Shown here one piece after another: positions 975 to 19,782 of a DNA stretch of 64,000 nt. The stretch is taken from positions 45,570,001 through 45,634,000 of the forward strand of contig OX597829.1 of the NCBI GenBank assembly GCA_951406725.2, in the 5' to 3' direction. Below the pieces are notes generated by a model that did not search any database, had not been told where the DNA came from, and was given only the letters and a program-made list of their open reading frames with translations. Position numbers and translations under genes: made by a program. Each line of letters begins with the position of its first letter. The stretch's first letter is position 1. This DNA comes from Octopus vulgaris (lineage: Eukaryota).

Positions 975-1330
975 TATCATCATCATCACCATCGTTTAAC
1001 TGTTTAACATCTGCTTTCCATGCTGGATGGTTTGTCAGAGGACTGGCAAGCCAGAAGGCTGCACCAGGTTCCAATCTGATCTAGCAATGTTTCTACAGCT
1101 GGATGCCCTTCCTAACACCAACCACTCTGAGAGTGTAGTGGGTGCTTTTTACATGCAACCGGCATGAGGGCCAGTCAGGCAGTACTGGCATTGAACATGC
1201 TTGAATGGTGCTTCAGTCAGGCAGCACTGGCAATGACCATGCCCAAATGGTATTTTTTACGTGCCACTGGAACAGGAGCCAGTCAGGTGGCACTGGCAAT
1301 GGCATAGCTTGAATGGTGCTTTTTACGTGT
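940..1330 (-). mobile_element. family C repeat (RTE-type 3' tail, (GAT)n end)
   Basis: Reverse of GTTAGGAAGGGCATCCAGCTGTAGAAA...TTAAACGATGATGAT; homologous to 61720-62060. Confidence 0.8.
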
Positions 1331-1649
1331 CAGGGTCATGGGATATTGTGAAAGGCTTGGTTGGAGGCCCAACCTTCCAAGTTCTTTTACAGGGCTTAGA
1401 AAAACTGAAGGGCTACTGCAATAAGTGTGTGAATCTGAGAGGGAAATATGTTGAATAAAATCATAACTGATCCACCTGTATTTTCTTTTTCCCAAAGCCA
1501 GGAACCTTTCAGTAACCTGTCATGTGTAGACAAATACATATGACAAACTTCCAGTTTCCACCTGTCAAATTTAATTACAAACTATTGTAGAGGATATTAT
1601 TTACATTATTTACATTTGACGGATATTTCTCCTCATATTGTTTGTTAGC

Positions 1650-1697
1650 AATACAGCATTTCGGCTGATATACCCTGCAGCCTTCATCAGGTGTCTT
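1650..1697 (-). ncRNA. type-I hammerhead ribozyme motif (decayed copy)
   Basis: AAGACAC-CUGAUGA-A-GGCUG/CAGCC-GAAA-UG-CU-GUAUU; U16.1 is mutated. Confidence 0.65.
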
Positions 1698-1740
1698 GGG
1701 AAAATTTCGAACCTAGGTTCTCATTCCTAAGGTATTCCCC

Positions 1741-1788
1741 AAGACACCTGATGAAGGCTGGAGGGTATATCAGCCGAAACATTGTGTT
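1741..1788 (+). ncRNA. minimal type-I hammerhead ribozyme motif
   Basis: GACAC (stem I)-CUGAUGA 1748-1754-A-GGCUG/CAGCC (stem II)-GAAA 1776-1779-CA-UU-GUGUU (stem I'). Confidence 0.75.
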
Positions 1789-2411
1789 AACAACAAACAA
1801 GATGAGGACAAATGTAAATAATGTAAATAATGTACATAATTACTCATCTCTTAAATATAGAACCATATTCTAGAGGACAGTAGCCAAAAGTGCCTATCCA
1901 GTGGAAGCAAACTCCAAACCATGTGGTTCCAAAGCAAAGTTCTTAAGGTTTAAGGAATTAATTTGTTTCAGGAAACAGATTTCTTTTAATTCCTTTCATT
2001 ACCATATTTCTTTTGAAATACATTGTCTTTGATTCAACTAATTTCGAAAATAATGAAGAATTTAGTTTGATAACTTAGTCATTGTCAATTTGGTATTTGG
2101 AATATAAATTAACATGAACTTTAATAGTCTTTGATTCAGATCCTTTTAAAAACAGAAAGTTAGTCTCTGGTTGGTTGGTATTAAAAGAGGGTGTCCTGCA
2201 AATACCAAATGAGTCACAGAATAAACTTCAAGTAAAGATAGGCTTGTGATATTGTTGTCTTGAGCATTTCTGTGATATCTTTTGTTGTTGATGTTGTTAT
2301 TGTTGTAGTTATAGTTGTTCAGCATCCAGATAAGATTATTAAAAGCATTCTAGCCATGACTATCCCATCTTATTTTCAGACATTGTATAATAATGACTAT
2401 ATTACCTAAGG

Positions 2412-19594: not shown

Positions 19595-19782
19595 AATAAC
19601 ATCGAAAATACCTTAGGAAGGAGAACCCAGGTTTGAAAATTTCCCCAAGACACCTGATGAAGGCTGGAGAGTATATCAGCCGAAACATTGTGTTAACAAC
19701 AAACAAGATGGAGACAAATATCCATCAAATGTAAATAATGTAAATAATGTACATAATTCCTCATCTCTTAAATACAGAACTG
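19595..19782 (+). mobile_element. monomeric copy of the hammerhead-containing Penelope-like/retrozyme element
   Basis: Same sequence as 1737-1865; CUGAUGA 19654-19660, GAAA 19682-19685. Confidence 0.75.

What the first reader, a model, noticed from the sequence alone, without database searches (positions are those of the whole stretch)
1583..1877. TSD-bounded mini-element made of two inverted hammerhead ribozymes
Seen: a 271-bp non-coding insert bounded by an 11/12-matching direct repeat, made of two back-to-back copies of one unit. Each unit carries GACAC-CUGAUGA-A-GGCUG/CAGCC-GAAA-nn-nU-GU(G/A)UU. The dinucleotide after GAAA is CA in one copy and UG in the other, the two opposite deamination products of CG. 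Known: Penelope-like elements and non-LTR retrozymes carry minimal type-I hammerheads with palindromic stem III that act as dimers, and they often show inverted partial LTRs. Inferred: the ancestral stem III is the palindrome AACGUU with a GUU cleavage site, and this is a non-autonomous self-cleaving retroelement family of cephalopods mobilised by a Penelope RT.
Basis: partly seen in the sequence, partly recalled or inferred. Interest (0 to 1): 0.75.

Follow-up and report, generated by a model that had tools for sequence, protein, structure and literature searches.

The report
Back-to-back Penelope retrotransposon end repeats
This insert is two shortened, back-to-back copies of the end repeat of a common protein-coding jumping gene (a Penelope-like retrotransposon), likely written by the enzyme starting once from each cut DNA strand; both ribozyme copies here are damaged, and the unusual feature of the family is a tRNA-derived stretch in its end repeat that may act as a promoter.

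Summary
In detail: a 271-bp insert, 12-bp TSD and two inverted minimal type-I hammerheads. The family consensus has CG after GAAA (87 of 155 units).

It is not its own non-autonomous family. The unit is the pseudo-LTR/ORF start of a Penelope/Poseidon-type PLE. It follows the RT–GIY-YIG stop codon in 27 of 30 loci and runs in frame into the ORF in 4 of 30. The exact junction occurs at two places genome-wide. There are roughly 26,000 decayed units.

Doublets pair one long with one short 3' end (69 of 75) and carry TSDs (50 of 75; control 5 of 300). In 38 of 69, including this one, each arm holds sequence the other lacks. This favours two priming events at two internal RT start sites.

Both hammerheads here are mutated, and the doublet RNA is predicted to bury them in a hairpin.

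The full pLTR carries a tRNA-Arg-like A/B-box head, which this insert lacks. Pol III use is unproven, because a hairpin explains the same 5' ends. The scan noted this tRNA-headed PLE before on other DNA (e1-8669850).

The parts
1583..1594 (.). Left target-site duplication (12 bp, 1 mismatch to the right copy)
   Evidence: family mode 12-13 bp; 50 of 75 doublets vs 5 of 300 controls
1595..1736 (-). Left arm: 5'-truncated pLTR copy with the SHORT 3' end (no tail); contains the PLE ORF start codon (1724-1722) and about 42 codons, now with a stop at codon 4
   Evidence: family boundary at 1596 and 1736 also seen as loose ends in 4 DNA runs
1650..1695 (-). Left hammerhead, damaged: CG to TG in the helix III palindrome, U16.1 to C, one mismatch in stem I and one in stem II; predicted inactive
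   Evidence: sequence read directly; activity inferred
1735..1736 (.). Head-to-head junction with 2-nt microhomology, no palindrome
   Evidence: same junction at one other place in the genome
1735..1865 (+). Right arm: 5'-truncated pLTR copy starting at ORF codon 8, with the LONG 3' end; 33 nt shorter at its 5' side than the left arm; 11-nt deletion after 1813
1743..1788 (+). Right minimal type-I hammerhead inside ORF codons ~10-25; core intact, palindrome decayed CG to CA; predicted cut 3' of 1783
   Evidence: helix III self-duplex -5.7 kcal/mol for the family form, +0.1 for this copy
1800..1849 (+). Stem-loop whose loop holds the short 3' end; likely the RT-binding/start structure
   Evidence: (I4); function inferred from PAc (PMC11167929)
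1832..1865 (+). PLE 'tail': 34 nt present on one arm only, between the two family 3' ends
   Evidence: (I2)
1866..1877 (.). Right target-site duplication
19596..19782 (+). Second, single copy of the same pLTR (microsatellite remnant, body, hammerhead, tail; no tRNA head)

Best explanation
The insert is a head-to-head pair of two 5'-truncated pseudo-LTR copies of a Penelope/Poseidon-type retrotransposon, likely made in one event in which both nicked target strands primed reverse transcription, one at each of two internal start sites. SHOWN in sequence: the full element is ORF (RT then GIY-YIG) - stop - ~30 nt - palindrome - tRNA-Arg-like head - (TAA)n - start codon - hammerhead (cut at ORF nt 70) - stem-loop - two 3' ends at ORF nt ~122-130 and ~152-154. 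Doublets nearly always pair one long with one short end and are flanked by a 12-13 bp TSD. INFERRED: the element protein, possibly as a dimer, nicks both strands 12-13 bp apart. Each 3'-OH primes cDNA synthesis on element RNA, one from the distal and one from the proximal site. Both cDNAs stop early and are joined by microhomology (2 nt here; very often at the palindrome at the pLTR's 5' edge). The ribozyme is a passenger of the pLTR. In the parent element it likely cuts multimeric or read-through RNA as a dimer or with protein help. Here both copies are mutated and would be buried in a long RNA hairpin. The family is old (about 5-7% divergence; no intact ORF seen). The short copies appear to come from the same source elements as the long ones. 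Whether they were copied from short Pol III transcripts started at the tRNA head (about 35%) or from long RNA interrupted at the palindrome (about 65%) is open.
For: pLTR directly behind the endonuclease stop in 27 of 30 loci, one being the query's own and five being copies of one duplicated segment. Tail continues in frame into the ORF in 4 of 30 loci (L145, L153, L171, L172). RVT_1 above Pfam cut-off in 2 of 4 family fragments scanned. C-terminal GIY-YIG-type motif with CxC and two His read from the translation, aligning to the GIY-YIG of another PLE of this genome. 3' ends: 113 long + 97 short of 251 units; the same two ends appear as loose ends in two RNA runs of organism B. Adjacent pairs are head-to-head in 90 of 106; long+short in 69 of 75; TSD in 50 of 75 vs 5 of 300, but in only 5 of 31 single copies. 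In 38 of 69 long+short doublets the tailed arm is the more 5'-truncated, so neither arm can be a plain copy of the other. Arms agree at subfamily sites: 56 of 60 (p=1e-8) and 56 of 63 (p=2e-5). PAc nicks and extends both strands, starts RT at two internal sites that define the tail, and is modelled as a dimer (PMC11167929). Inverted pLTRs, a one-sided tail, TSDs and palindromes at pLTR 5' ends are described for rotifer Penelopes (PMC3846280).
Against: Pfam GIY-YIG did not hit the two endonuclease fragments, so the domain and clade rest on motif reading; no tree was built. No biochemical test of priming or cleavage. Later deletions inside palindromes could mimic 'each arm holds what the other lacks'. 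21 of 69 doublets have the short arm more truncated and 10 are about equal, which fold-back also allows. Many junctions are perfect fold-backs at the palindrome (flipped-loop form 241 vs native 735 matches), which self-priming explains equally well. Concordant arms could come from one RNA or from two RNAs of the same period. Samples were chosen by exact patterns, mostly on contig C1, and favour less-decayed copies. No empty site was listed.
Confidence: 0.8

Rival explanations
1. Same parent element, but the inverted arm arises by fold-back: one cDNA self-primes at its 3' end (the palindrome or a microhomology) and is copied back, ending at the short site.
For: Perfect symmetric junctions at the palindrome are common. 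Arms share subfamily variants. Self-priming was proposed for PLE palindromic junctions (PMC3846280).
Against: For this locus the left arm has 33 nt more at the 5' side, the right arm has the 34-nt tail and an 11-nt deletion that the left lacks. 38 of 69 doublets have this nesting. The window junction is not palindromic. Single copies seldom show a TSD (5 of 31).
Confidence: 0.15
2. The short copies form a SINE-like class: Pol III starts at the tRNA-derived head of the pLTR, and the short RNA, uncut as a monomer, is copied by the PLE protein. The window doublet would be a truncated product of such RNA. This concerns the RNA source and is compatible with the best explanation.
For: 58 of 70 head-containing copies begin within 19 nt upstream of the pattern, none at 20-24, 12 further up. 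The head aligns colinearly with host tRNA-Arg(TCT) and (TCG), z 8.6 and 8.0, best of 25 distinct tRNA sequences covering few isotypes. A and B boxes are intact and there is no T4 run on the sense strand of the pLTR.
Against: The wall coincides with an imperfect palindrome. Endonuclease-attached copies often delete it (8-13 of 53 across most of its positions), so it disturbs copying by itself, and palindromes at pLTR 5' ends occur in PLEs without any reported tRNA head. No diagnostic change separates short from long copies. Two RNA-seq runs of organism B show about equal strands and no pile-up of read starts. ARAGORN and Rfam do not call the head a tRNA.
Confidence: 0.35
3. One reading: a self-standing non-autonomous family built of two inverted hammerheads (or a retrozyme) that transposes as a unit.
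For: A TSD bounds the whole unit; one other locus has the same junction and a third is within 1 nt of it.
Against: Only 2 junction matches in 2.8 Gb against about 26,000 units. The other locus lacks the window's deletion and differs at subfamily sites. Junctions vary freely. Same-strand neighbours are rare (12 of 106), so no tandem arrays. The unit is in frame with the PLE ORF. Opposite-strand ribozymes cannot dimerise in one RNA.
Confidence: 0.03

Closest known systems
Penelope/Poseidon PLEs: Poseidon_Ac of the green anole (PMC11167929, main text parts 1-2 of 4 read) and Pen2a/Pen2/Pen3a of Adineta vaga (PMC3846280, passages)
   Same: Single RT + C-terminal GIY-YIG ORF; hammerhead overlapping the ORF start; two internal 3' ends bounding a 30-40 nt tail, the upstream one in a stem-loop; inverted pLTR with tail on one side; TSD; palindrome at the pLTR 5' edge; AT-rich targets.
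   Different: The pLTR contains a tRNA-Arg-like A/B-box head and a (TAA)n tract (D. virilis Penelope uses a LINE-like internal promoter, PMC2377424 passages). TSD mode is 12-13 bp vs 8-10 bp in the rotifer cases. Most copies are pLTR-only.
Minimal type-I hammerheads of metazoan PLEs (PMC4209133, parts 1-2 of 4 read)
   Same: Extra nucleotide between A9 and G10.1, G10.1-C11.1 pair, long helix II, 5-bp helix I, palindromic 15.2-16.2; pairs on opposite strands 100-700 bp apart were already noted there.
   Different: Helix II is 6 bp here; both window copies are decayed.
Non-LTR retrozymes and Schistosoma SM-alpha SINE-like repeats (PMC7761336 and PMC6765202 passages; bioRxiv 10.64898/2026.07.22.740005 part 1 of 5 plus passages)
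   Same: Short dispersed repeat with type-I hammerhead, PLE-related; SM-alpha is described as Pol III-transcribed.
   Different: No tandem arrays; head-to-head pairs dominate; the sequence is colinear and near-identical with the autonomous PLE's own pLTR and ORF start, with no separate lineage.
TRIMp3 elements Helenus, Ajax, Cassandra (PMC10886601, passages)
   Same: Small-RNA-derived Pol III promoter sequence inside a terminal repeat, thought to come from a SINE insertion.
   Different: Those are non-autonomous LTR elements; here the tRNA-derived part sits in the pLTR of a protein-coding PLE.

Membership tests
EN+ Penelope-like element (Penelope/Poseidon clade) | Single ORF with RT followed by C-terminal GIY-YIG endonuclease | tested here: met
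   RVT_1 above cut-off in 2 of 4 fragments; EN motif read in translation and aligned to another PLE's GIY-YIG; Pfam GIY-YIG itself did not hit
EN+ Penelope-like element (Penelope/Poseidon clade) | [quoted passage not shown] | tested here: met
   Read by eye from the L145 and L093 translations against the definition in PMC8557442
EN+ Penelope-like element (Penelope/Poseidon clade) | RT phylogeny within Penelope/Poseidon | not tested
   No tree or homologue search was run
EN+ Penelope-like element (Penelope/Poseidon clade) | pLTR that repeats the ORF start behind the stop codon, direct or inverted, with one-sided 30-40 nt tail | tested here: met
   27 of 30; 4 of 30; 69 of 75 long+short; 34-nt tail in the window
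EN+ Penelope-like element (Penelope/Poseidon clade) | Target-site duplication | tested here: met
   50 of 75 doublets vs 5 of 300 controls; only 5 of 31 single copies
Minimal type-I hammerhead ribozyme | CUGANGA and GAAA core, UH triplet, helices I and II, palindromic helix III | tested here: met
   Met for the family form (N7 varies T 119 / A 39 between subfamilies). The right arm lacks the palindrome; the left arm also lacks U16.1. Rfam models did not hit
Minimal type-I hammerhead ribozyme | Self-cleavage as dimer or with protein help | not testable with these tools
   No read-start pile-up in two RNA-seq runs, uninformative for a fragmented library
Non-LTR retrozyme | Tandem head-to-tail non-coding repeats, each with a hammerhead | tested here: not met
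   12 of 106 adjacent pairs on the same strand; 90 head-to-head; unit is in frame with a PLE ORF
Non-LTR retrozyme | Abundant circular monomer RNA | tested here: inconclusive
   No back-joint at the predicted cut among listed joints (16 not shown); library not suited
tRNA-derived SINE | tRNA-related head with A and B boxes at the element's 5' end | tested here: met
   For the full pLTR; absent from the window insert, whose arms stop short of it
tRNA-derived SINE | Independent non-autonomous lineage distinct from its partner | tested here: not met
   No diagnostic substitution between 53 EN-attached and 155 head-starting units
tRNA-derived SINE | Transcription by RNA polymerase III | not testable with these tools
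   5' wall and absence of T4 runs fit it; the palindrome explains the wall too

The most novel reading that the evidence does not exclude
An autonomous Penelope element captured a tRNA-Arg-derived Pol III promoter inside its own pseudo-LTR, so that the element itself sheds a ~270-nt SINE-like RNA carrying the ribozyme and both RT start sites. Its dimeric protein writes this RNA in from both cut strands, giving tens of thousands of head-to-head pairs. This would be a SINE-like class born inside, and never separated from, a PLE, and a genome-scale record of twin priming.
Probability: 0.3. Interest if true: 0.7.

Novelty: new variant of a known kind. Interest (0 to 1): 0.45.

Why it matters
How PLEs make their inverted repeats and one-sided tails is still open (PMC8557442 calls for mechanistic work; PMC11167929 leaves later steps unvalidated). 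This high-copy family gives counts that separate the models: one long plus one short end per insertion, a 12-13 bp stagger, mutually non-nested arms. These are testable in the existing PAc assay. A tRNA-derived promoter in an autonomous PLE's pLTR did not turn up in my paper searches; Repbase and Dfam could not be searched, so the family may already be deposited. If functional, it would link PLEs to SINE birth. Thousands of such doublets are also a source of long double-stranded RNA. The locus itself is a dead, ordinary product of this family.

Tried and rejected
Rfam scans found no hammerhead or tRNA family; the top hits were miRNA models matching the long hairpin or microsatellites. ARAGORN called no tRNA in 11 loci.

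The Pfam GIY-YIG genome search found other PLE families, for example one with 781-codon open frames. They do not share this hammerhead or tail, so they were rejected as partner.

A pattern search for sister hammerhead families gave 24 matches. I examined 10: eight were decayed members of this family and two (L378, L395) were unrelated and not followed. No sister family was found in which to test conservation of the tRNA head.

The flipped-loop test for second-generation, non-autonomous templates was inconclusive, because the flipped form also occurs in three clearly endonuclease-attached copies.

No RNA holder was listed for the window stretch. The empty-site search in four DNA runs listed no joint skipping the insert; 192 joints were not shown and the flanks were poorly covered.

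ADAR-type hypermutation: 1 of 269 units had 5 or more A>G or T>C changes, and the window arms show no such signature.

PMC5785218 (dimer cleavage of PLE hammerheads) is not held. No tree, homologue search or structure prediction was run. Supplements were not opened; those of PMC13282606 and PMC4209133 may list this family.

Full report
OBSERVATION. The described sequence is present. A 12-bp direct repeat with one mismatch (1583-1594, 1866-1877) encloses 271 bp made of two inverted arms. The right arm holds a minimal type-I hammerhead (stem I 1743-1747/1784-1788, core 1748-1754, extra A, 6-bp stem II, GAAA 1776-1779, predicted cut after 1783). Alone, it forms stems I and II with probabilities of 0.76-1.0. 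The apparent 31-nt spacer is the longer 5' part of the left arm; the arms meet at a 2-nt overlap, 1735-1736. Rfam found no hammerhead family, so the ribozyme call rests on the motif as defined in PMC4209133 (parts 1-2 of 4 read).

FAMILY. The window lies in a 2.8-Gb assembly; no call established the species. The unit is a high-copy repeat. There are 1,432 exact matches of a 37-nt hammerhead pattern (control 0). Ten of 182 units sampled independently of that pattern match it exactly, giving roughly 26,000 units, a rough figure. Mean identity to the majority sequence is 92.6% over 228 units. 44 of 182 units keep both core and palindrome, in line with neutral decay. For some searches I dropped 7 loci: 3 duplicates (L176, L177, L197) and 4 suspected duplicates that I did not check (L203, L208, L212, L216). 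For the consensus I dropped 7 of 30 loci (3 without the head, 4 copies of one duplicated segment). Most loci come from exact-pattern lists on contig C1.

PARENT ELEMENT. In 4 of 30 hammerhead-pattern loci the repeat is preceded by DNA that translates as the C-terminus of a PLE endonuclease. Searching with that DNA, 27 of 30 returned loci carry the repeat about 30 nt behind the stop codon on the same strand; one is the query locus and five are copies of one segment. [quoted passage not shown] RVT_1 scores above cut-off in 2 of 4 fragments; Pfam GIY-YIG hit neither endonuclease fragment. One fragment aligns to the thumb and GIY-YIG of another PLE of this genome. The CxC/His pattern and a linker without an extra Zn-finger fit Penelope/Poseidon as defined in PMC8557442 (introduction and passages); no tree was built. 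No intact ORF was seen. The start codon lies 70 nt before the predicted cut and 154 nt before the long end, the arrangement described for PAc (PMC11167929, parts 1-2 of 4). The PLE families found with Pfam GIY-YIG do not share this repeat.

INSERTION ANATOMY. 3' ends are bimodal: 113 long and 97 short of 251. The same two ends appear as loose ends in two RNA runs of organism B, and the window's boundaries recur in DNA runs of four organisms. Of 106 adjacent pairs, 90 are head-to-head, 12 same-strand and 4 tail-to-tail. Of 75 doublets with both ends, 69 pair long with short, where about half would if ends were drawn independently. 50 of 75 have a TSD (mode 12-13 bp) against 5 of 300 mismatched flanks. 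Only 5 of 31 single copies do, two of them in simple repeats. Arms agree at two subfamily sites (56 of 60; 56 of 63) and share 20 other variants against 7.9 (maximum 16) for random pairs. In 38 of 69 doublets the tailed arm is the more 5'-truncated, in 21 the short arm, and 10 are about equal (doublets limited to inner gaps under 700 nt). The window is of the first kind: the left arm has 33 extra 5' nt, while the right arm has the 34-nt tail and an 11-nt deletion. Its exact junction occurs at 2 places in the genome with up to one mismatch, so the 271-bp unit is not a family.

MECHANISM (inferred). Both strands are nicked 12-13 bp apart. Each 3' end primes reverse transcription, one at the distal and one at the proximal internal site, and the two truncated cDNAs are joined by microhomology or at the palindrome. 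This extends what was shown for PAc (nicking and extension of both strands, two start sites bounding the tail, predicted dimer) to the final product. Fold-back self-priming, proposed in PMC3846280 (passages), explains the many symmetric junctions but not mutually non-nested arms unless deletions followed. The ribozymes are passengers. They are on opposite strands, so no dimer forms in one RNA; the doublet RNA folds to -145.5 kcal/mol and stems I and II drop to probability 0.0. The right copy's helix III self-duplex is +0.1 against -5.7 kcal/mol for the family form, and the left copy has lost U16.1.

tRNA HEAD. The complete pLTR begins with an imperfect palindrome followed by about 75 nt that align colinearly with host tRNA-Arg(TCT) and tRNA-Arg(TCG) (z 8.6 and 8.0 against shuffles; best of 25 distinct tRNA sequences of few isotypes), with A and B boxes, then (TAA)n. 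There is no T4 run on the sense strand. Of 70 head-containing copies, 58 begin within 19 nt upstream of the pattern, none at 20-24 and 12 further up. This is where a Pol III start would lie (spacing recalled, not from a call). Three results count against reading it so. The wall is also the palindrome, which endonuclease-attached copies often delete. No substitution separates 53 such copies from 155 head-starting ones. RNA reads show about equal strands and no start pile-up. That tRNA-Arg-derived SINEs are known from octopus is recalled and untested. Neither arm in the window reaches the head.

COMPARISON AND NOVELTY. The hammerhead type, inverted pLTRs, one-sided tail, TSD and 5' palindromes are all described for PLEs. 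It fails the retrozyme test (no tandem arrays) and the SINE test of an independent lineage. A tRNA-derived segment in an autonomous PLE's pLTR was not found in six paper searches; the nearest concept is TRIMp3 (PMC10886601, passages). Other papers seen as passages only: PMC13282606, PMC6765202, PMC6962438, PMC8967140, PMC7761336, PMC5625713, PMC2377424; the 2026 retrozyme preprint as part 1 of 5 plus passages. Repbase and Dfam were not searchable. An earlier follow-up in this scan reached the same reading on another piece of this genome (e1-8669850). I saw it after my own analysis, and it is not independent evidence.

VERDICT. A real feature and a decayed inverted-pLTR insertion of a Penelope/Poseidon-type element. 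The family is a variant worth noting for its tRNA-derived head and its clean record of two-ended priming. Interest 0.45.

Noticed in passing
window 1340-1520: High-copy repeat just left of the insert (very high depth in four DNA runs); it reads like the 3' end of a Tc1/mariner transposase plus terminal repeat (label recalled, not tested).
   Followed up: no
window 1200-1332: Two diverged 66-nt direct repeats belonging to another common repeat of this genome.
   Followed up: no
L061-L064, L070, L073 (G000 C16:20.84 Mb and others): A young PLE family with many uninterrupted 781-codon RT + GIY-YIG frames, preceded by a second long open frame (up to 479 codons) and followed by a long repeat-rich 3' region; my scan found no type-I hammerhead within the 8.5-kb stretches.
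   Followed up: partly
L378:1500-1537 (G000 C1:94.6 Mb): A hammerhead-like motif with the same helix III palindrome but unrelated stems; possibly another PLE family.
   Followed up: no
L097, L104, L108 (upstream of the pLTR): pLTR copies sit in the (TAA)n tails of other LINE-like retrotransposons, suggesting preferred insertion into, or joining with, these microsatellites.
   Followed up: no
L096:1405-1635: Chimera in which another tRNA-like SINE head appears joined to this element's head in the anticodon-arm region (SINE label recalled).
   Followed up: no
L213: One unit with 6 A>G changes, the only candidate for fixed A-to-I editing among 269 units.
   Followed up: no
L292:138-2854: Cluster of seven tRNA-Cys-like genes within 3 kb.
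   Followed up: no
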